Positions 6,175 through 14,401 of a DNA stretch of 32,000 bases are shown piece after piece (position 1 is the first letter of the stretch; each line of letters starts with the position of its first letter). The stretch spans positions 366,418 to 398,417 of the forward strand of contig JBBISB010000001.1 of assembly GCA_037441475.1 (NCBI GenBank), given 5' to 3'. This DNA comes from Candidatus Iainarchaeum sp. GTDB taxonomy: Archaea; Iainarchaeota; Iainarchaeia; Iainarchaeales; CSSED10-239. A model generated the notes under the pieces. It saw only the letters and a program-made list of their open reading frames with translations. It ran no database searches and was not told where the DNA came from. The position numbers and the translations under genes were made by a program.

Positions 6175-7434
6175 CTAACCAATATTTTCAAGCTTTATTA
6201 TTTCCCTTATCAAAACTGTGGCGTACTGTCCCTTATCTAAAACAAAAGAAACAGTGGCCTTCATTTGTCCAAGATTTAAATCATCTTCTTCTACTGAAAT
6301 TAACTTTAAGTCTTTTGGGAAAGTGATAAGAGGCCTAAAATCCCCCTTGCAAGAAAGAACAGAGTAATCTCTATTAAAAAAATGCTTAAAATCTATTCTT
6401 TCTTTTTTAAAAATCTCTTTTTCAACCTCTCCAGCCTTTCCTTCTAAAAACTTAGAATCATGACCAAACAACTGTAGGTTTATTTTACCATCAATTATTT
6501 TATCTCCCTCTATTTCCTGAGTAGAATATCCCTTATCTATTCTTAAGTTAATAATTTCATTAAATAAAAAAGATTGATAGGCATGTAAAAATAAATACTG
6601 CATTGACTTTGATAATGCCTTAAAAGCACCTAAGTAATCATCAGGGTTATTTGCTAAGTGGTTTAACATGGTAACTTCAAAGCCACTTTTTGAAGGAAAA
6701 GAAGATGACCATTTTTTAAAATCCTTTGTATCTAAAATATCTTTTCTTGCAAAAATCATTTCCTCTGACTCATACTCTGAAGGGGATGTTAAATAAAGAA
6801 GAACAGCTTCTTTGTAATTTTTATATAAAAGCGCTTTACCAACCTTTGCTGTAATCTCTCTTGCACCACCAAACCTTTGCTCTCCAAAATAATTAATTAA
6901 GCCTTTTTGATTAATTTCAAGAATTGCTTTTTCAATAATATCAATAATTTCTTGTTTTGTAAAAGAAGTTATCTGTCTTATAGTTATTGTAAACTTATTA
7001 ACTTCTAAATCTCCAATATCTATTTTTTGAGAAGACCAAGAAGGGTTATAAGTTTTAATATCTTTAAAATAAAATTTTGAAAGTCTTTCAATTGCAGGGT
7101 CATAAAGAGATATTCTTTGAGAGGAGATTGATCTTTTGTCCTTTAAACCTGCATAACCAAATCTTGATTTTGAAAGTCTTAAAAATCTAGACATCTCACT
7201 TATCGCATGCATGGTTGAAAGATTATGTTTTTCCATATCAAGAATTAAATAATCCTCTCCTTGTTTTCTTTTTTCAAAAACATCTTTCCACTCAATGGTT
7301 TCTATTTTTTTATCAGGTAAATATTTTACAGAAGTAGTGTAGTTTAAACCAGACTCTTCAACTATGAAGTCTTGAGGAAGTTGTTTTATTCTTCCGCCTA
7401 AGCCTTTTGTTGTTGTAATGTATCTATAATCCAT
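6175..7434 (-). CDS. truD: tRNA pseudouridine synthase TruD/Pus7 family
   Basis: 419 aa. The N-terminal GLGGRIKQLPQDFIVEE and the catalytic region FGYAGLKDKRSISSQ are TruD hallmarks. Confidence 0.92.
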   Translation of the reverse strand: MDYRYITTTKGLGGRIKQLPQDFIVEESGLNYTTSVKYLPDKKIETIEWKDVFEKRKQGEDYLILDMEKHNLSTMHAISEMSRFLRLSKSRFGYAGLKDKRSISSQRISLYDPAIERLSKFYFKDIKTYNPSWSSQKIDIGDLEVNKFTITIRQITSFTKQEIIDIIEKAILEINQKGLINYFGEQRFGGAREITAKVGKALLYKNYKEAVLLYLTSPSEYESEEMIFARKDILDTKDFKKWSSSFPSKSGFEVTMLNHLANNPDDYLGAFKALSKSMQYLFLHAYQSFLFNEIINLRIDKGYSTQEIEGDKIIDGKINLQLFGHDSKFLEGKAGEVEKEIFKKERIDFKHFFNRDYSVLSCKGDFRPLITFPKDLKLISVEEDDLNLGQMKATVSFVLDKGQYATVLIREIIKLENIG

Positions 7435-7437
7435 GGT

Positions 7438-7689
7438 TTAAAGTTCCTTAACATATATTGGAAGAGTATTCTTATCAAGAGGAATAGCAACTTCTTTCTT
7501 TAAAGCAGTATTTTCTAAAAATAAATAAACTATGTTTCCAGAAAAATTAGGACCTTCAAAAAATCTTTGTTTTAAACCAGTTATTTTATAACCTGGATAT
7601 TTTTCTTTTATTAAGTTAATTTTTTTATCACTACCCTTAACAAGCTTAAAGCCTAATCTTTCTGAAAAACCTTTAGTTTCGCTAAACAC
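7438..7689 (-). CDS. Hypothetical protein; probably the C-terminal part of a frameshifted gene (weakly GNAT-like)
   Basis: GTG start in the ORF track. The same frame stays open upstream to 7773 (FRTIKKIYSELLSVAKDKKLKNIYTSSWVFSETKGFSERLGFKLV...). Confidence 0.4.
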   Translation of the reverse strand: MFSETKGFSERLGFKLVKGSDKKINLIKEKYPGYKITGLKQRFFEGPNFSGNIVYLFLENTALKKEVAIPLDKNTLPIYVKEL

Positions 7690-7712
7690 CCATGATGAGG
7701 TATATATATTTT

Positions 7713-7943
7713 TTAGTTTCTTATCTTTTGCAACAGATAAAAGCTCAGAATATATTTTTTTAATTGTCCTAAATTAGATTCTGCATTTGCTTTTAGAAAA
7801 TCAATGACTAAAGATTTTCCTTTAACTGTGTAGGTAAGAGAATAATTTTTATTTTCCAAGCTTCTTTTACGTAAATCTATGATTCCACATTTAGTTCCAA
7901 GAGTGGTTTTAGTAAGATTTCTTGCTTTTAATGTTTTTATCAA
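7713..7943 (-). CDS. Hypothetical protein; probably the N-terminal part of the same frameshifted gene
   Basis: 76 aa. Its frame and that of 7438..7689 overlap across a T7 run (7755..7761). A 1-nt change there would fuse them into about 165 aa. Confidence 0.4.
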   Translation of the reverse strand: MIKTLKARNLTKTTLGTKCGIIDLRKRSLENKNYSLTYTVKGKSLVIDFLKANAESNLGQLKKYILSFYLLQKIRN

Positions 7944-7957
7944 ATCAAATCACCTTT

Positions 7958-10507
7958 CTACCTATATCTTAAGAAAGCTCCAATTCCACCAAAGGTTTCA
8001 AAAAATTGTTTACCTTCTAAGGTTTCAACAGAGATTAGTTCAACCTTTGCATTTGTACTTTGAGAAACTTCTAAAAAATAATTATAAAGATCTACTTCTT
8101 CTACAAGCTCTGCCTTTACACCCTCACAATCTGAATTGGAATTTTCAAACTTTGAAATTGCATCTTCAACTTCATGTTTGTTTTTTACAACCTTTATAAA
8201 CCTTGATTTATCTGAAAGACATTTAAACTTTAAAATTGTCCAATCTAGGCCTTCTGAAACAATTATTGTAGATATTTTACCAATAGCTAAAGCATCCATA
8301 ACATCTTGAAAACCATAGGTTGCTAAGGAGTTTTTTGCAAGGTCTTCAAAAAATTTTGCAATTATTTTTCTTTCTTGAACTAAACCGGTTTCTCTTAAAA
8401 TTTCTTCGGATTTATCTAGAACTTCTTTAATACCTGATTCATCTGTGTAAGAGGTGTCAACTGTTCCTAAGATCTTATCCTTTAACCTGTGATCAAGATC
8501 ACCAATTTCTAAAAATTCATGTTTAGTAAGACCAGGACCGCCAACAATAATTCCCTTAAAATTATCAATACCTACAAAAGCAGTATTTACTTTTTCACCT
8601 ATTCTTTTATAAAATTCCTCTTCATACTTATCTCTTAGTCTTTCAAAACGATGTGCTGAATTATGGACAATTAAACCATTAGCTATAAAAGATTTATTTA
8701 TAACTGAAATATCAGTCATTGTAGTTTTCTTTTTTTCAATAGTTATAGAGTTTATTTTAGCACATAAGTAAGGAAGAGTATAAGATTTAGTTAATTCTTT
8801 TAAAAGAGATTTATCTTTAACATACTCTAGAATAGAACCTTTAAAACAAGACTTACTCATCATTCTATTATTATTAAAAAAATTACTAACCTTTGGAAAC
8901 ATTTCAAGATTATAACCTTTTCTTTCGATTACTTCTCTAACCTTTCTGCCATAAACAGGCAAGGTTCTTGAAAAACTCATTTCTGTTTTGCTTAATAATA
9001 TTTTTTTAATTTTGTTTTGTTTTTCTAAAGAAGTAAAATTAATATTCTTTTCAAAAGAAAAAATAGATTCTTTATCTGAAATAGAAATTACAAAACGATG
9101 ATTTTTTGTATAAGGATTTTTATTGTTATCATACTCTTGAAGAGAAGAAACTATTGCAAATCTAAATAAAGTTAATTGAAGTTGTTGTGCAAGCCTTTTA
9201 TTATTTATTCCAAGATCTATTGATTTTCTAGAAGCGTTAACATACCCTTCAGCATCGTATAGTCCTTTTAAAAAAGAAGCTAAAATCTTATTAGAAGAGG
9301 TTAATATCTTAGAAGGTATTAAAGAATCTCTTGCTTTTTTAATCTCTTTAAACTCCTCTTTAATTAACCTTACAAGAGCAGTTGAAGTAACTCTTAATTG
9401 ATAATAGTTTTTAGAACTTCTAAAAGTTAGAGAGGAATTGACATTAAAATATTTATCAAATAACTTTTTATACTCTAAAATAACCTCTTCTCTTGATTCA
9501 AAAAAAGTAACTCTATCTTTTTCAAGAGAACCATCTCCTAAAAGATAACCTATAAACTGAGAAAAAGTAGTATCAAGCTTTGAAGGTATTTTTATAGACG
9601 GTTTATTTAGTTTAGAAATATACTTTTTAGTTTCAAAAAAAGAATCTTTTGTTTTATAAGAAAGTTTTTCTGGAAATAATAAATAATCTTCTTTAGTAAG
9701 TTCTTTAGATGTTTTTTCAATAACTCCAGAAGGGGTTAATACAAAGAAGATATGGTCTTCACTTGCTTTAATTTCCATTCCAGGCGCTTTTGTTTTTATT
9801 GTATAGGTGGAATTTTTAATAACATCCCATTTTTTAATAACCTTAGAATCAATAAATTTATTATTTTTAAAATCCATGGAAGACAGGTTTGTTTTTGTAG
9901 AAATTTCATTAATATCTAATAAATCACCATTAGATAAAGAAACAAAGGAATCTTTTAAACATTGTCCCCCAGCCTTTGTCTTACCAGGAACATTTGAAGT
10001 TTCTGTAAAAATAATTTGTTTTGATTTACCTCTTAAGATAGCGACTGTAGCTTCTCGTTTATCCATAACAATTAAACCATACACATCATCTGTTTGAGCC
10101 ATATCCTCTAAAGGGTCTATATGGAAAGTTGAATCACACCAATAAAGCTTTGTGGTTAATCTGTTTGGTGGAACAATAATTAATAAAACAACATCTGATT
10201 TTGAAGGGTTTGTTGAAACATCTCCTGCAAATAAAACTAAACCAGTTGCAGGAAGTTTAAAATCAATTTGTTTTAAATAATTAATAATTCTTTTTAAAGC
10301 AGCTTGAACATTTTTTCTGGTCTGTGCACTCTTAATGTTTGCTGATTGACTCATTTCGTCTGTTAATTGTTTTATAGCTGTACTTCTGTCTGCGTCAGGT
10401 GGAAGATAAAGACTTATAAGCTGAGTTCCTTGCCCTTTATAGGTCTTTATGACTTTTACTTTTTTTTTTAAAAGCATTAAATTAGCATCATCCATAAAAA
10501 AACACAT
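7958..10507 (-). CDS. prf1: Peptide chain release factor aRF1, interrupted by an intein
   Basis: The N-extein contains KGQGTQLISLYLPP ... PGKTKAGGQ. The C-extein starts SAHRFERLRDKYEEEF and runs through typical aRF1 domain 3. The likely start is the ATG at 10493..10495 (MDDANL...). Confidence 0.95.
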   Translation of the reverse strand: MCFFMDDANLMLLKKKVKVIKTYKGQGTQLISLYLPPDADRSTAIKQLTDEMSQSANIKSAQTRKNVQAALKRIINYLKQIDFKLPATGLVLFAGDVSTNPSKSDVVLLIIVPPNRLTTKLYWCDSTFHIDPLEDMAQTDDVYGLIVMDKREATVAILRGKSKQIIFTETSNVPGKTKAGGQCLKDSFVSLSNGDLLDINEISTKTNLSSMDFKNNKFIDSKVIKKWDVIKNSTYTIKTKAPGMEIKASEDHIFFVLTPSGVIEKTSKELTKEDYLLFPEKLSYKTKDSFFETKKYISKLNKPSIKIPSKLDTTFSQFIGYLLGDGSLEKDRVTFFESREEVILEYKKLFDKYFNVNSSLTFRSSKNYYQLRVTSTALVRLIKEEFKEIKKARDSLIPSKILTSSNKILASFLKGLYDAEGYVNASRKSIDLGINNKRLAQQLQLTLFRFAIVSSLQEYDNNKNPYTKNHRFVISISDKESIFSFEKNINFTSLEKQNKIKKILLSKTEMSFSRTLPVYGRKVREVIERKGYNLEMFPKVSNFFNNNRMMSKSCFKGSILEYVKDKSLLKELTKSYTLPYLCAKINSITIEKKKTTMTDISVINKSFIANGLIVHNSAHRFERLRDKYEEEFYKRIGEKVNTAFVGIDNFKGIIVGGPGLTKHEFLEIGDLDHRLKDKILGTVDTSYTDESGIKEVLDKSEEILRETGLVQERKIIAKFFEDLAKNSLATYGFQDVMDALAIGKISTIIVSEGLDWTILKFKCLSDKSRFIKVVKNKHEVEDAISKFENSNSDCEGVKAELVEEVDLYNYFLEVSQSTNAKVELISVETLEGKQFFETFGGIGAFLRYR
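8660..9961 (-). mobile_element. Intein (434 aa) with a LAGLIDADG homing-endonuclease domain, inserted between GGQ and S of aRF1
   Basis: It starts with Cys (CLKDSFVSLSNGDLL, codon 9959..9961). Block B is SEDH. LAGLIDADG motifs are FIGYLLGDGSL and FLKGLYDAEGYV. It ends ...NGLIVHN (Asn codon 8660..8662), followed by the +1 Ser. Confidence 0.9.
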
Positions 10508-11011: not shown

Positions 11012-11479
11012 CTACTCCTCGCTATATTTTAAATTTTCATTAATGTTTATTTCTTGATAAGGAAAGACAATGGTGAGCATATCTTTTACCTCACTTATAT
11101 AATAATCAGGTTTAAACTTTGTTTTATTTGTTTTATAAAAAATACATGCTTGCGAAATTGATTTTATTTTCGGATAGTTTTTATTAAGCTTTACAATTAT
11201 TTCTTTTGAAGCGTCATCAAAGACATCATCAACTAAAAGAACCTCGCCTTCAATATCATAAATGGTGGAAACATAATTATCAACATGGTATTTACCATCA
11301 ACATGCTTTGCTGCAATAACACCCATTGGAAGCTCTAGCATTGAAGATAAAAGCCTTGCAAGTAAAAGGCCTCCACGACTAACCCCGATTACTGCTGTGT
11401 ACGATTTATTATCATCAATTATTTTTTTAGCTAAATCAATGGCTAAAGACTCAAACTCGTTCCAGGATACCTTGTACAT
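11012..11479 (-). CDS. Phosphoribosyltransferase-family protein (purine PRTase-like)
   Basis: 155 aa. It has AVIGVSRGGLLLARLLS and the PRPP-binding acidic loop VLLVDDVFDDASKE. Confidence 0.7.
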   Translation of the reverse strand: MYKVSWNEFESLAIDLAKKIIDDNKSYTAVIGVSRGGLLLARLLSSMLELPMGVIAAKHVDGKYHVDNYVSTIYDIEGEVLLVDDVFDDASKEIIVKLNKNYPKIKSISQACIFYKTNKTKFKPDYYISEVKDMLTIVFPYQEININENLKYSEE

Positions 11480-11573
11480 ATAATATATTATAGTTGTAAA
11501 ATATATTTAAATATATGGTTAAAATAAGTTATTAAAAACCTTTCTTTTAAAAATACCCACTAAAATAATGCTC

Positions 11574-12587
11574 CTACTCTATAAGAGTAAAAGTAGCATA
11601 TACGTTTTTGGCAGTTGTCATATTATTAATAAAACACCACTCATCTGATACACTACTACAATCTCAGGACCAGGCTGTAAAAACACTACCAGGATTAGCA
11701 GTTGCCTTTATTGAGAAGGTAGATCCACATTGCATGTAAAATGTACAAGAACTATTATTACAACCAATCCACGGATAATTGTTAGATAAATTTCCCTGTC
11801 CACTACCAATAATATATGTTGTAAGAAGATAAGTTCTTACTCCAACTCTTAAATTAACAGTTTTATTACTATCCATTATAAGATTACAGGGGTTATTACC
11901 AGAACAAGCTCCACCCCAATTAGGAGTAAGTAAATAATAACAACCAGACGCGCTTCCAATTAAAGTTACGGTTGTATTTTCATTATAACTAATACATCCA
12001 GAACCGCAACTAGTTCCTGGAATACTACTATTTATGCCTATAGCCGCAGAATAATTAGAACTATAGTTTAAATTATATACTACATTGATTATGTAAGTTC
12101 TAGTTAATAAACCACTATCTTGATAATTATTTTTAAAAGCTTTAGCTCTTATTGTATAAGTTCCATTTGAAGATAAAGGTATAGGCGTACCATTATAAAC
12201 AGTACCAGTTGTAGACGTTGGATCAGAACCATTAATAGTATATCTTATTTCTGCACCAGATGTAGTTGTAGATAAAGTTACATTTTGATAAGAAGTATAA
12301 GTTCCGGCAGTAGGAGAACTTGTAAGAGTTGCAACAATAAAATTAAAAGTATTTAAGGTTATAACCACACTTGATTGATAACCAAATCTATAAGCTATGG
12401 CTTTTATTACTGTATTGTTAGTGTTTAAAATAATCGCAGTGCCTGGAGATATTTCTGTACCAATTGTTTCTGTTGGAGTAGTTCCATCTAAAGTATAACG
12501 TATCATTGAACTTGGAGTTGTTGTGTTTAAAGTTACAGATTGATCATTATTATAATTTCCGCCATTTAAACTAAAGGTTGGAAACAA
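11574..12587 (-). CDS. C-terminal segment of a large pilin-anchored adhesin; contains an in-frame TGA at 11664..11666
   Basis: It has two CHB_HEX_C/Fn3-associated-type repeats (…IRYTLDGTTPT…, …IRYTINGSDPT…) followed by two Cys-rich InlB-B-repeat-like modules. After TGA the frame continues DCSSVSDEWCFINNMTTAKNVYATFTLIE to TAG at 11574..11576, which completes the second module. Confidence 0.65.
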
Positions 12588-14298
12588 TTAAATTAATATT
12601 AAATAATTTTTCAATAACTGGGCTTATGGAATAACCAGGTGCATAACAAACAGCATTAATCGTTGTGGTGGTTATTAAATTTAAAACAGAAGAATAAATA
12701 TTACCAACATCTCTTGTTGGAATGGATCCATCTGTTGTGTACCTTATGGTGCTTGATGGAGTTGAACAACTTAAAGTAACAGAAACACTGTTAGTATGTA
12801 TTCCACCATTTGGTGAAAATAAAGGGATTACTGCAGGATCACTAATATTAAAGTTACCTTCAGCAACTGGGCTTGAAGACCAACCAGTTTTATAGACCCT
12901 TGCTTTTAAAGTTAAATTGTTTGAAACAAAAACACCTGAACCAGTATAAAGATTACTTGTTTCATTAGGATCAGTTCCATCAGTAGTATATCTTATAGTG
13001 TAAGGAGAGGGTGTGATTGTGTTAAGTAAAATAGATTGATTATTATAAGTTCCTGGAACCGGACTAAAGGTTGGATCTAATGCAGGAAGGGTAATGTTAT
13101 AATCTGCTTGAGAAACTATACTTGAAAAAGAACCAACATATGCTATTGTCTTTATAGTTTTACTTGAAGAAACATTAATTGGTCCAGAATAGATTGGACT
13201 TGTTTCTGTTGGATCAATACCAGTTGTTGTGTATCTTATGGTTGCACCTGCGTTACTGTTACTTAAAATTACATTCTGTATAGAGGTGTAAGTTCCACCT
13301 GGAGGAGTTATCGCCACAGGGTCTAATGGAACAAAGAAAGTATATGTAAATGTTGAAACTGAACTTGGAAGATAATTTAGTTTACAAGCAATTGCTTTAA
13401 TTGTAGTATCATTTAAAACTGTTATTGGAGAGGTGTACTCTGTAAAAACACCTGAACAATCAGGAGAGGAAGAATCTATAGTATAATAAATAACTGCATC
13501 TTGAGTTGTAGTTGACAAAGAAATATCAATTGGGTTTATTAAATTTATTTGATTTTCTAAACTTGACTCTACAGATGATACTGTGTAATAAGAAGAATTA
13601 TATGTACCTGATGAAAGGTTAGAAAAAAGAGAACCGGTAAAAGAAATAGCATTAATAGTTGTGCCAGCAGTAATTGATAAAGGAGAAATATATATGTTTG
13701 AAGATAAATTAGGATTACTTCCATCTAAAGTATAATAAATATTAAGAACAGGATCGGCAGAAGTTAAAGAAACTAACATAGGAAATTCAGATACATTATA
13801 TGTACCTGCAGGCGGGTCAAAAATTGGTCTCGAAACAATTGAAGTTTTTGGACCACTATCACTCCAATTAAAAGAATATCTAGAAGATCTTTTTACTTGA
13901 TTATTTTTAGATACTTCTATAGATAAGTAATAAGTATCTCCACAAAATAATTTGCCTAAATTTATACCAGATGCTATTAATCCAATTGTATTATTTGGAT
14001 TTAAATTATTCATATCCTGTAATTCAGTATTAGCAGTAACAATATAATCTAGATTTCCAACAACCTTATTACTGGAATCTTCTATTATTAAACTAAAAGT
14101 ACCTTCTTTAGATAATGGCTTCCAAGAAAAGGTTAAAAGCCCTTCTCTTATACCAGGAGGATCTATATATTCACAATTAAAATAATTTGCAGTTACTGAA
14201 ACGATAATAGGAGGTAAAGGTCCATCTGTAGAAGAAGCAATTTGATTCCCTTGAGTAGAAGCATTATCTCTTCCTTGCCCCCCGACCCCCCATTGATA
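12571..14298 (-). CDS. Middle segment of the same adhesin (five CHB_HEX_C-like beta-sandwich repeats)
   Basis: The ORF track starts at Met 14013, but the frame is open upstream to 14298 (YQWGVGGQGRDNASTQGNQIASSTDGPLPP...). It contains a repeated P.FSP.GGTY...V.L....IRYTTDG.DP signature. Confidence 0.7.
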   Translation of the reverse strand, partial: YQWGVGGQGRDNASTQGNQIASSTDGPLPPIIVSVTANYFNCEYIDPPGIREGLLTFSWKPLSKEGTFSLIIEDSSNKVVGNLDYIVTANTELQDMNNLNPNNTIGLIASGINLGKLFCGDTYYLSIEVSKNNQVKRSSRYSFNWSDSGPKTSIVSRPIFDPPAGTYNVSEFPMLVSLTSADPVLNIYYTLDGSNPNLSSNIYISPLSITAGTTINAISFTGSLFSNLSSGTYNSSYYTVSSVESSLENQINLINPIDISLSTTTQDAVIYYTIDSSSPDCSGVFTEYTSPITVLNDTTIKAIACKLNYLPSSVSTFTYTFFVPLDPVAITPPGGTYTSIQNVILSNSNAGATIRYTTTGIDPTETSPIYSGPINVSSSKTIKTIAYVGSFSSIVSQADYNITLPALDPTFSPVPGTYNNQSILLNTITPSPYTIRYTTDGTDPNETSNLYTGSGVFVSNNLTLKARVYKTGWSSSPVAEGNFNISDPAVIPLFSPNGGIHTNSVSVTLSCSTPSSTIRYTTDGSIPTRDVGNIYSSVLNLITTTTINAVCYAPGYSISPVIEKLFNINLIVSNL

Positions 14299-14401
14299 TT
14301 AAAATTGTAATAATAACTACAGCAATAAGCACTGCTCCACCAACCAATATCAAAGACTCTAGATTCCCTTGCCCCTTTGTTTTTTTAATCATATAATCCA
14401 T
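14264..14401 (-). CDS. N-terminal fragment of the adhesin: class III (type IV pilin-like) signal peptide
   Basis: 45 codons, below the ORF-track cutoff: MDYMIKKTKGQGNLESLILVGGAVLIAVVIITILISMGG... The frame is lost at the G-runs. Confidence 0.55.
   Translation of the reverse strand: MDYMIKKTKGQGNLESLILVGGAVLIAVVIITILISMGGRGARKR
14278..14291. repeat. C6-GA-C6 (G6-TC-G6 on the coding strand) homopolymer pair at the adhesin frameshift site
   Basis: The plus strand reads ccccccgacccccc. Removing one G would join the signal-peptide frame to the long adhesin frame. Confidence 0.8.

What the first reader, a model, noticed from the sequence alone, without database searches (positions are those of the whole stretch)
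8660..9961. LAGLIDADG intein inserted exactly after the catalytic GGQ of release factor aRF1
The host protein reads ...PGKTKAGGQ | CLKDSF...(434 aa)...GLIVHN | SAHRFERLR... The intein has canonical splice junctions (Cys1, terminal HN, +1 Ser), a block B SEDH and two LAGLIDADG motifs (LLGDGSL, LYDAEGYV). It therefore looks splicing-competent and homing-competent. It splits the universally conserved peptidyl-tRNA hydrolysis motif, so no termination activity is possible until splicing occurs. Inteins favour active sites. I do not recall aRF1 among the classical intein hosts, but I cannot check a database here.
Basis: partly seen in the sequence, partly recalled or inferred. Interest (0 to 1): 0.65.

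Follow-up and report, generated by a model that had tools for sequence, protein, structure and literature searches.

The report
Mobile intein splitting archaeal release factor
The only gene for the stop-codon release factor (aRF1) in this tiny DPANN archaeon is interrupted, right after its catalytic Gly-Gly-Gln, by an intact self-splicing intein with a homing endonuclease; the element is real and has moved recently between lineages, but it is common in public metagenomes and works in the ordinary way.

Summary
ORF 7958..10507 (-) is an aRF1 carrying a 434-aa insert at 8660..9961 (-), between Gln182 of GGQ and Ser617. The insert has every sequence hallmark of a class-1 intein: Cys1, a block B reading SxxH, a block F Asp, a terminal His-Asn and Ser+1. 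It also has two LAGLIDADG motifs with their acidic residues intact. The AlphaFold model matches solved aRF1 and the TliVMA and PI-PfuI inteins.

It is the genome's only aRF1, so splicing must work. This is inferred, not shown.

The allele is not rare. At least 418 intein-sized aRF1 clusters sit in public data, all at the same site. About 37 of 151 genomes in the same order carry it, including 4 of 7 in the genus.

Most alleles have an extra HTH module. This one belongs to a clade that lost it.

The new result here is a mosaic contig. It matches genome G002 in its flanks (100% upstream of the gene) but carries an intein 95% identical to this window's. The breakpoints lie within about 50 nt of both junctions. 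That indicates recent lateral transfer.

I found no paper describing aRF1 inteins. This scan has noted the same element many times on other DNA. Verdict: a new member of a known kind.

The parts
7958..10495 (-). aRF1 precursor gene (845 aa from the ATG at 10495; an alternative ATG lies at 10507; the stop is TAG at 7958..7960)
   Evidence: ORF list. TIGR03676 scores 420 bits, and Pfam finds eRF1_1, eRF1_2 and eRF1_3. The start is inferred from homologues. The stop codon was read directly. It is the only aRF1 in the 769-kb genome.
9962..10495 (-). N-extein (178 aa): aRF1 domain 1 with NIKS and YxCxxxF, plus the first part of domain 2, ending in GGQ (9962..9970)
   Evidence: The Pfam eRF1_1 match covers aa 22-136.
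8660..9961 (-). Intein, 434 aa, class 1, with a LAGLIDADG endonuclease
   Evidence: AlphaFold model with pLDDT above 90 over most of the intein. Foldseek hits to 7qss (TM 0.77), 1dq3, 2cw7 and PI-SceI.
9632..9961 (-). N-terminal splicing half (intein aa 1-110). Block A is CLKDSFVSLSNGD (9923..9961). Block B is GMEIKASEDHIFFV (9740..9781), with Ser67 and His70.
   Evidence: Cys183, Ser249 and His252 are invariant in 59 aligned alleles. Coordinates.
9032..9595 (-). LAGLIDADG endonuclease core (intein aa 123-310). Motif 1 is FIGYLLGDGSL, with catalytic Asp143 at 9533..9535. Motif 2 is FLKGLYDAEGYV, with catalytic Glu238 at 9248..9250.
   Evidence: Pfam LAGLIDADG_3 with two matched stretches. The acidic residues align with those of the TliVMA intein. 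dN/dS is 0.20-0.23.
8777..9031 (-). Helical accessory region after the endonuclease core (intein aa 311-395)
   Evidence: Five helices in the model, at H494-506 to H566-576. The region is conserved across alleles. A DNA-contact role is inferred by analogy with the accessory domains of PI-PfuI and the VMA inteins (PMC8966425).
8660..8776 (-). C-terminal splicing half (intein aa 396-434). Block F is TTMTDISV (Asp417 at 8711..8713). Block G is FIANGLIVHN (His433, and Asn434 at 8660..8662).
   Evidence: Asp599, His615 and Asn616 are invariant. Coordinates.
7961..8659 (-). C-extein (233 aa). It begins with Ser+1 (8657..8659) of the native GGQS loop, then the rest of domain 2 and all of domain 3.
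   Evidence: Intein-free orthologues read GGQ|S..RF at the same point.

Best explanation
This is a canonical class-1 intein with a two-motif LAGLIDADG homing endonuclease. It sits in frame between Gln182 and Ser617 of the GGQS peptidyl-tRNA-hydrolysis loop of the organism's only aRF1.

The gene is translated as an 845-aa precursor. In that precursor the intein is inserted in the GGQ loop, so the precursor should be inactive in peptide release (inferred).

The intein then removes itself by the standard four steps:
- An N-S acyl shift at Cys1.
- Trans-esterification to the native Ser+1.
- Cyclisation of Asn434, helped by His433 and the block F Asp.
- An O-N shift that restores the GGQ-S peptide bond.

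This gives a normal 411-aa aRF1. Its Gln can then be methylated by the Mtq2-like enzyme encoded about 2 kb beyond the window.

The freed intein is a site-specific DNA endonuclease. It is expected to cut intein-free aRF1 alleles at the GGQ|S codons, so that repair copies the intein in (homing).

What is shown: the sequence anatomy, the predicted fold, single copy, purifying selection, patchy distribution and a recent intein-sized lateral exchange. What is inferred: splicing chemistry, endonuclease activity and inactivity of the precursor.
For: Anatomy and junctions:
- Coordinates and junction residues are exact.
- Pfam and NCBIfam find intein, LAGLIDADG and aRF1 models, with the aRF1 match split at profile position 174.
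- The intein is homologous by sequence to the VMA inteins and PI-PfuI (E = 1e-11 to 3e-10).
- The AF2 model has mean pLDDT 86. Foldseek hits 4af1 (aRF1), 7qss (TliVMA intein, TM 0.77), 1dq3, 2cw7 and PI-SceI.

Conservation and selection:
- C1, block B Ser and His, block F Asp, His-Asn and Ser+1 are invariant in 59 alleles.
- It is the only aRF1 in an 89.5%-complete, 769-kb genome; the only other hit, a much weaker partial match, I took to be Pelota without checking it.
- Across G000, G002 and G132, intein dN/dS is 0.19-0.26 and the endonuclease core is 0.20-0.23. Intein dS is about equal to extein dS.

Distribution:
- The site GGQ|C...HN|S is the same in 116 of the 120 listed homologues; my pattern did not match in the other 4.
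- About 37 of 151 genomes in the order, and 4 of 7 in the genus, carry the intein.
- The nearest extein relative, P0121/L037 (95% aa identity), has no intein.

Mobility:
- Contig L032 is 100% (upstream), 96% (N-extein) and 95% (C-extein) identical to G002. Its intein is only 82% identical to G002's but 95.0% identical to the window's.
- At informative sites, L032 matches the window at 202 and G002 at 32 inside the intein. The same counts are 0 and 290 upstream, 10 and 64 in the N-extein, and 15 and 113 in the C-extein (Fisher p = 2.5e-105).
- The breakpoints lie at 9947-9941 and 8681-8650, against junctions at 9961 and 8660.
- The mosaic allele was assembled independently in four JGI samples.

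An Mtq2-like methylase is present.
Against:
- This clade lost the HTH_3 module that most aRF1 inteins carry. That could have weakened target binding.
- Intein dS is about equal to extein dS within G000, G002 and G132. This fits vertical inheritance there, so homing is not needed to explain this genome's copy.
- Replacing one intein variant by another at an occupied site cannot happen by direct endonuclease cleavage. It needs an intein-free intermediate or ordinary homologous recombination.
- Other short window-like tracts occur downstream in L032 (73 of 341 informative sites). General recombination between these lineages therefore happens.
- NG86 estimates in a genome of about 28% GC, with dS of 0.4-0.7, are rough.
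Confidence: 0.85

Rival explanations
1. The intein still splices, but its endonuclease no longer homes. The element is effectively fixed and inherited vertically. The intein-sized exchange seen in L032 would then come from ordinary homologous recombination, with crossovers in the conserved sequences at the intein ends, and not from endonuclease-driven homing.
For: - The HTH accessory module has been lost in this clade.
- Intein dS is about equal to extein dS in G000, G002 and G132.
- Other window-like patches occur downstream in L032.
- Homologous recombination is reported to shape populations of the related Ca. Forterrea (PMC5905446, title and abstract).
- Some sister alleles clearly have dead active sites: P0018 and P0019 have Asp replaced by Val, P0018 also has Glu replaced by Lys, as does P0011, and P0023 has lost most of the endonuclease.
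Against: - The catalytic Asp143 and Glu238 are retained.
- The endonuclease core has dN/dS of about 0.2, as constrained as the splicing halves. That is hard to explain for a useless domain.
- Both breakpoints of the exchanged block fall within about 50 nt of the junctions.
- The intein comes and goes among close relatives, including an intein-free allele at 95% extein identity.
Confidence: 0.25
2. The intein has been co-opted as a post-translational switch (conditional protein splicing). Release-factor activity would then be gated by an environmental cue such as redox state or temperature.
For: - The position in the catalytic loop means activity depends strictly on splicing.
- Conditional splicing is known for other archaeal inteins, for example RadA, cited in PMC4760082.
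- The intein persists in a single-copy essential gene.
Against: - No conserved second cysteine exists to form a regulatory disulfide. Cys372 and Cys400 are not conserved.
- Close relatives do without the intein.
- The distribution and the mosaic pattern are those of a selfish element.
- Nothing here tests conditionality.
Confidence: 0.07
3. The insert is an artefact or marks a dead gene. Either it is an assembly chimera, or it is an aRF1 pseudogene whose insert cannot splice.
For: The genome is a metagenome-type assembly of two contigs, about 90% complete. A second aRF1 could lie in the missing part.
Against: - The reading frame is intact and all catalytic residues are present.
- The exteins are under strong purifying selection, with dN/dS of 0.07-0.14.
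- The same architecture occurs in more than 400 independent public clusters and in many complete or near-complete genomes.
- The window's intein is 95% identical to its nearest neighbour, not 100%, so it was not stitched in from another population.
Confidence: 0.02

Closest known systems
Homing-endonuclease-associated VMA inteins of Thermococcales (TliVMA and PhoVMA; PDB 7qss, 7qsu, 7qst; Beyer and Iwai 2022, PMC8966425)
   Same: Both are class-1 inteins with a Hint splicing domain, a two-motif LAGLIDADG endonuclease and accessory region(s). They are the best hits by sequence (E = 1.4e-11) and the best intein hits by fold (TM 0.77 on the target). The LAGLIDADG acidic residues align.
   Different: The host protein and site differ: V-ATPase subunit A there, the aRF1 GGQ|S loop here. 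Sequence identity is only about 15-19%. The aRF1 family ancestrally carries an XRE-type HTH_3 module between the splicing and endonuclease domains; I did not look for it in the VMA inteins. This window's intein has lost that module.
PI-PfuI (Pyrococcus furiosus RIR1 intein, PDB 1dq3), PI-TkoII (2cw7) and PI-SceI (1vde, 1lws)
   Same: The overall architecture is the same: an intein plus a LAGLIDADG endonuclease with extra DNA-contact regions. Foldseek gives E = 2.5e-21 to 3e-12, and the phmmer hit to 1dq3 has E = 2.8e-10.
   Different: The hosts and insertion sites are different. Those enzymes have demonstrated splicing and cleavage activity. Nothing is demonstrated here.
The long, HTH-bearing aRF1 inteins of DPANN archaea (for example P0010, P0011, P0036; G108, G051 and G138 in the same genus or family)
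   Same: The insertion site (GGQ|C...HN|S) is the same and the sequences are homologous along the whole length, at 52-56% aa identity. They form one family on the intein tree.
   Different: They carry a module of about 70 aa matching HTH_3 (PF01381, 34 bits in P0010) that is absent here. The HTH-less forms fall in at least four separate well-supported clades, which indicates repeated loss.
Other archaeal inteins in translation proteins (aIF2/IF-2, listed in Novikova et al. 2015, PMC4760082)
   Same: Both are inteins in a core translation factor of archaea. The NCBIfam model for intein-containing IF-2 matches this intein (52.8 bits).
   Different: That survey's main text lists no release factor. 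It states that core transcription and translation components contain few inteins. aRF1 is therefore a host not covered there.

Membership tests
Class-1 intein (Hint-domain protein-splicing element) | Nucleophilic Cys or Ser as the first residue | tested here: met
   Cys183 (intein residue 1) follows GGQ directly. It is invariant in 59 alleles.
Class-1 intein (Hint-domain protein-splicing element) | Block B TxxH motif | tested here: met
   The motif reads S-E-D-H (Ser67, His70), a conservative Ser-for-Thr variant. Both residues are invariant across alleles.
Class-1 intein (Hint-domain protein-splicing element) | Block F Asp, and block G ending in His-Asn | tested here: met
   TTMTDISV...FIANGLIVHN. 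Asp599, His615 and Asn616 are invariant.
Class-1 intein (Hint-domain protein-splicing element) | Ser, Thr or Cys as the first C-extein residue | tested here: met
   Ser617 is the native Ser of GGQS. It is also present in all intein-free orthologues.
Class-1 intein (Hint-domain protein-splicing element) | Hint fold, and a profile match above the curated threshold | tested here: met
   PF14890 scores 64 bits against a cut-off of 35.8. The AF2 model has pLDDT above 90 in the intein, and Foldseek hits solved inteins. The fold is predicted, not solved.
Class-1 intein (Hint-domain protein-splicing element) | In-frame insertion at a conserved host site, with uninterrupted orthologues elsewhere | tested here: met
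   About 105 of 151 genomes in the order have an uninterrupted aRF1. Removing the insert restores GGQ|SAHRFERL exactly as in relatives.
Class-1 intein (Hint-domain protein-splicing element) | Demonstrated protein splicing | not testable with these tools
   This needs expression and detection of the ligated exteins. It is inferred only from single copy and sequence constraint.
LAGLIDADG homing endonuclease (two-motif, intein-borne) | Two LAGLIDADG motifs, each with its catalytic acidic residue | tested here: met
   GYLLGDGSL (Asp143) and GLYDAEGYV (Glu238). PF14528 scores 63.8-65.9 bits with two matched stretches. Both align with the acidic residues of TliVMA.
LAGLIDADG homing endonuclease (two-motif, intein-borne) | Site-specific cleavage of the intein-free allele | not testable with these tools
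   Candidate target sequences were collected. No assay was possible.
LAGLIDADG homing endonuclease (two-motif, intein-borne) | Evidence of mobility: patchy distribution, and intein history differing from host-gene history | tested here: met
   Four of 7 genomes in the genus carry it. In the mosaic allele L032 the breakpoints fall at the intein ends, p = 2.5e-105. The exteins of P0001 and P0006 are 99% identical while their inteins are 79% identical. Homologous recombination is not excluded as the vehicle.
aRF1 (TIGR03676, class-I release factor of archaea) | Three eRF1 domains, and a score above the curated cut-off | tested here: met
   420 bits against a cut-off of 234.7, and Pfam eRF1_1, eRF1_2 and eRF1_3 are all found. 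Foldseek hits 4af1 at E = 2.6e-25.
aRF1 (TIGR03676, class-I release factor of archaea) | NIKS, YxCxxxF and GGQ motifs | tested here: met
   ANIKSA, YWCDSTF and canonical GGQ (codon CAA) are all present. This genome is not one of the GGW or GGM variants noted elsewhere in the scan.
HTH-bearing aRF1 intein subfamily | An XRE-type HTH_3 module between the N-splicing half and the endonuclease | tested here: not met
   No HTH match appears even at E up to 1. The alignment shows a clean gap of about 70 aa. The window's intein is a derived HTH-less form within that family.

The most novel reading that the evidence does not exclude
The aRF1 intein is more than a passenger. Because it sits in the catalytic loop of the sole release factor, its splicing rate would set how much termination capacity the cell has. 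Splicing may respond to conditions, making it a post-translational gate on termination in genome-reduced DPANN cells. Different intein variants, with or without the HTH module, would then compete for the same site by repeated loss and re-invasion. That would make this a natural system for watching a full homing cycle in an essential translation gene.
Probability: 0.08. Interest if true: 0.65.

Novelty: new member of a known kind. Interest (0 to 1): 0.35.

Why it matters
Inteins are mostly known from replication and repair proteins. A survey of bacterial and archaeal inteins states that core translation components contain few of them (PMC4760082).

An intein family that sits in the GGQ loop of the release factor, is common across DPANN archaea and still moves extends the host range to translation termination. 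It also gives three practical things:
- A correct annotation. NCBI labels several of these genes only as 'LAGLIDADG family homing endonuclease' or 'helix-turn-helix domain-containing protein'.
- A natural set of endonuclease variants, with and without an HTH accessory domain, all aimed at one very conserved DNA site.
- A documented case of intein turnover within one subsurface population.

Mechanistically it is a textbook intein, so it does not change how we think inteins or release factors work.

Tried and rejected
- Literature: seven searches gave no paper on a natural aRF1/eRF1 intein. The terms were intein with aRF1, eRF1, 'peptide chain release factor', GGQ, DPANN, and 'release factor' plus archaea, and the Novikova survey title. 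The one apparent hit, Bodo saltans virus, mentions eRF1 and inteins separately. The supplements of Novikova 2015 are not held.
- Idea that intein-free alleles escape by switching the Ser+1 codon to AGY: it looked promising on 27 alleles but did not hold on 66, with AGY in 9 of 32 intein-bearing and 15 of 34 intein-free alleles. What remains is an excess of CAA over CAG at Gln-1 in intein-bearing alleles (28 of 32 against 16 of 33). Relatedness and GC content confound this, so I report it only as a hint.
- A degenerate HTH hidden in the window's intein: rejected. There is no Pfam HTH match at E up to 1, and the alignment shows a clean gap.
- A conserved second cysteine for redox control of splicing: not found.
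- A second, uninterrupted aRF1 in the genome: not found. The only other TIGR03676 hit is weak and partial; I took it for Pelota without checking it.
No atomic distances at the active site were examined.
Full report
**1. The observation**

- Window 7958..10507 (-) is one open frame of 849 aa.
- GGQ is at aa 180-182. The next residue is Cys183 (codon 9959..9961).
- The sequence ...GLIVHN ends at Asn616 (codon 8660..8662) and is followed by SAHRFERLR.
- Homologues begin at MDDANL, so the real start is probably the ATG at 10495, giving 845 aa. The stop is TAG.

**2. What it is**

Profile searches:
- Pfam finds eRF1_1, eRF1_2 and eRF1_3, with Intein_splicing (64 bits against a cut-off of 35.8) and LAGLIDADG_3 (63.8 against 22.5) nested in eRF1_2.
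- The aRF1 equivalog TIGR03676 scores 420 bits. The match is broken at profile position 174.
- By sequence, the insert matches the solved TliVMA and PhoVMA inteins and PI-PfuI (E = 1.4e-11 to 2.8e-10).

Structure:
- I aligned the precursor with 58 homologues (A1) and modelled it. Mean pLDDT is 86, and most of the intein is above 90.
- Foldseek against the PDB returns aRF1 and eRF1 structures (4af1, E = 2.6e-25) for the exteins.
- For the insert it returns TliVMA (7qss, TM 0.77 on the target), PI-PfuI (1dq3), PI-TkoII (2cw7) and PI-SceI.

Catalytic residues:
- All class-1 intein hallmarks are present and invariant across the 59 alleles: Cys1, block B Ser67-x-x-His70, block F Asp417, His433-Asn434 and Ser+1.
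- Both LAGLIDADG motifs keep their acidic residue (Asp143 in GYLLGDGSL, Glu238 in GLYDAEGYV). These align with the acidic residues of the TliVMA enzyme.
- That paper's abstract describes one of its two VMA inteins as having an active endonuclease. Its section headings identify PhoVMA as the degenerated one (PMC8966425).
- A helical region of about 85 aa follows the endonuclease core. It probably corresponds to the accessory DNA-contact domains discussed in that paper. This is an inference.

**3. Context in the genome**

- The window lies in a 769-kb, two-contig genome that is 89.5% complete. Earlier notes of this scan describe it as a DPANN archaeon related to Ca. Forterrea. I did not check that.
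- This is the only aRF1. The only other TIGR03676 hit, a much weaker partial match, I took to be Pelota without checking it.
- Two further LAGLIDADG inteins exist in the genome. One is in the P-loop of a HerA/DUF87-type ATPase. The other is in a TPP-binding enzyme; that it is the beta subunit of a 2-oxoacid:ferredoxin oxidoreductase is my own untested reading.
- An Mtq2-type methylase scores above its cut-off (TIGR00537, 107.6 bits). It lies about 2 kb beyond the window's end. That fits the canonical GGQ seen here.

**4. How common it is**

- A search restricted by length to intein-sized proteins found 418 clusters. This is a lower bound, because only 8000 candidates were scored.
- In 116 of the 120 listed, the junctions read GGQ|C ... 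HN|S..RF, which is the same insertion site; my pattern did not match in the other 4.
- Source names include Diapherotrites, 'ainarchaeum', Woesearchaeota and Nanoarchaeota. JGI already labels several 'eRF1/intein/homing endonuclease'. NCBI often names the whole protein only 'LAGLIDADG family homing endonuclease' or 'helix-turn-helix domain-containing protein'.
- In a sample of 151 genomes of the same order, about 37 have aRF1 split at position 174 and about 105 have it uninterrupted.
- In the window's genus, G000, G002, G108 and G132 carry the intein. G034, G093 and G075 do not.
- The closest relative of the window's spliced extein in the large protein collection is intein-free: P0121, 411 aa, 95% aa identity, with 90% and 87% nucleotide identity in the N- and C-exteins.

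**5. The HTH module**

- Most aRF1 inteins are about 500 aa long. They carry an XRE-type HTH_3 module of about 70 aa between the N-terminal splicing half and the endonuclease (PF01381, 34 bits in P0010).
- The window's intein lacks it completely.
- On an intein tree of 116 alleles, the HTH-less forms fall in at least four separate well-supported clades. Two of these are nested among long forms.
- The long form therefore looks ancestral, and the HTH looks to have been lost repeatedly.
- The window belongs to a ten-member HTH-less clade with support 100.
- Some other alleles show decay: Asp to Val (P0018, P0019) or Glu to Lys (P0018, P0011) in the motifs, and a 271-aa remnant in P0023. The window's clade shows none.

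**6. Constraint**

- I compared G000, G002 and G132 by the Nei-Gojobori method.
- Extein dN/dS is 0.07-0.14. Intein dN/dS is 0.19-0.26. The endonuclease core alone is 0.20-0.23.
- Intein dS (0.46-0.69) is close to extein dS (0.40-0.71).
- Within this trio the intein has therefore largely co-diverged with its host gene, and its endonuclease has stayed under purifying selection.
- These estimates are rough at such AT-rich, fairly diverged sites.

**7. Recent lateral movement (the main addition here)**

Protein comparisons first showed a mismatch between intein and extein histories:
- P0001 and P0006 have 99% identical exteins but only 79% identical inteins.
- The window's intein is 95.6% identical to P0001's, although their C-exteins are only 82% identical.

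At the DNA level, the P0001 contig (L032) compares with G002 and the window as follows:

| Segment | L032 vs G002 | L032 vs window |
|---|---|---|
| Upstream of aRF1 | 100% | 68% |
| N-extein | 96.1% | 86% |
| Intein | 82.0% | 95.0% |
| C-extein | 95.0% | 81% |
| Downstream | 89.8% | 78% |

I then treated L032 as the child and G002 and the window as parents. The counts below are informative sites at which L032 matches one parent or the other:

| Segment | Matches window | Matches G002 |
|---|---|---|
| Upstream | 0 | 290 |
| N-extein | 10 | 64 |
| Intein | 202 | 32 |
| C-extein | 15 | 113 |
| Downstream | 73 | 268 |

- Comparing the intein with the rest gives Fisher p = 2.5e-105.
- The switch points are 9947-9941 and 8681-8650. 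The junctions are at 9961 and 8660.
- The mosaic allele is not an assembly artefact. It was assembled in four different JGI samples at 99.1-100% identity over 6-9 kb.
- The G002-type allele also recurs independently (L036, 99.94%).
- The window's intein differs from G002's by about as much as their flanks do (81% against 78-86%). The simplest reading is that the intein is native to the window's lineage, and that a close relative of it replaced the resident intein in the G002-type population.

Whether the vehicle was homing into a transient intein-free allele or plain homologous recombination cannot be decided. Shorter window-like tracts further downstream in L032 show that general recombination also occurs. 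Recombination is also reported for the related Ca. Forterrea (PMC5905446).

**8. Target site**

- The 48 bp around the insertion point are strongly conserved at non-synonymous positions in 32 intein-bearing and 34 intein-free alleles.
- Intein-bearing alleles use CAA for the GGQ glutamine in 28 of 32 cases. Intein-free alleles do so in 16 of 33.
- The Ser+1 codon family does not differ convincingly: AGY in 9 of 32 against 15 of 34.
- Relatedness and GC content confound this comparison. It is a hint for a cleavage assay and nothing more.

**9. Mechanism, and what is inferred**

- Shown here: the anatomy, the predicted fold, single copy, sequence constraint, the distribution and the intein-sized exchange.
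- Inferred from established intein chemistry: the four-step splicing reaction using Cys1, Ser+1 and Asn434; inactivity of the precursor in peptide release, because the intein is inserted in the GGQ loop; and cleavage of empty sites by the freed endonuclease.
- Nothing suggests conditional splicing. There is no conserved second cysteine.

**10. Novelty**

- I found no paper describing a natural intein in aRF1 or eRF1.
- The 2015 survey lists aIF2 but no release factor. It notes that core translation components contain few inteins.
- The library searched does not hold everything, and InBase could not be consulted.
- Within this scan, the same element has been noted many times on other DNA: 69 notes in at least 62 genomes. 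Earlier follow-ups reached the same verdict, including 'still moving'.
- It is therefore a new host and site for a known kind of element. It is abundant but unremarked, and mechanistically ordinary.
- Interest is modest (0.35). The HTH gain and loss series and the observed variant replacement are the parts a specialist might use.

Noticed in passing
Genomes G031, G048, G062, G073, G082, G099 (one family of the same order); also G015, G097, G010, G025, G102, G127: The aRF1 matches in these genomes each contain one in-frame stop codon. It is TAA in all six genomes of family f31. Elsewhere single TGA, TAG or TAA stops occur. This could be read-through or autoregulation of the release-factor gene, a code change, or an artefact of how the match was drawn.
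   Followed up: no
L064 (G037:C11:176162-177352): This intein-free aRF1 in the same order reads GG-TGG (Gly-Gly-Trp) where GGQ is expected. It matches the GGW variants that earlier notes of this scan report in other DPANN lineages.
   Followed up: no
Own genome G000:C1:187902-189107 (+) and G000:C1:554349-555443 (-) (loci L005, L006): The genome holds two more LAGLIDADG inteins. One sits in the Walker A loop (GKRGGGK|C) of a HerA/DUF87-type ATPase. The other sits in a TPP-binding enzyme, at ...GYQN|C...VVHN|TGAQ; I read it as the beta subunit of a 2-oxoacid:ferredoxin oxidoreductase but did not test that.
   Followed up: partly
window 7438..7943 (-): Relatives have one 168-aa gene of unknown function between aRF1 and truD (L032, L036, L038). 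In the window this stretch yields only an 83-aa ORF at 7438..7689 plus a separate upstream piece. The gene therefore looks frameshifted here, in line with an earlier first-reader note.
   Followed up: partly
window 11012..14401 compared with L032 and L038: There is a synteny break. In relatives, an intein-free DUF87/HerA gene of 515 aa lies just upstream of the phosphoribosyltransferase gene. In the window that position holds the broken adhesin ORFs. This genome's intein-bearing HerA-like gene lies about 190 kb away.
   Followed up: no
G000:C1:400402-400932 (-), about 2 kb beyond the window's end: An Mtq2/HemK-related methylase (TIGR00537, 107.6 bits, above its cut-off) is encoded close to aRF1. 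That fits a canonical, methylatable GGQ.
   Followed up: partly
L032 downstream of aRF1 (corresponding to window about 6200..7300): Short runs of window-like informative sites occur in an otherwise G002-like contig. They suggest further recombination tracts between these two lineages outside the intein.
   Followed up: no
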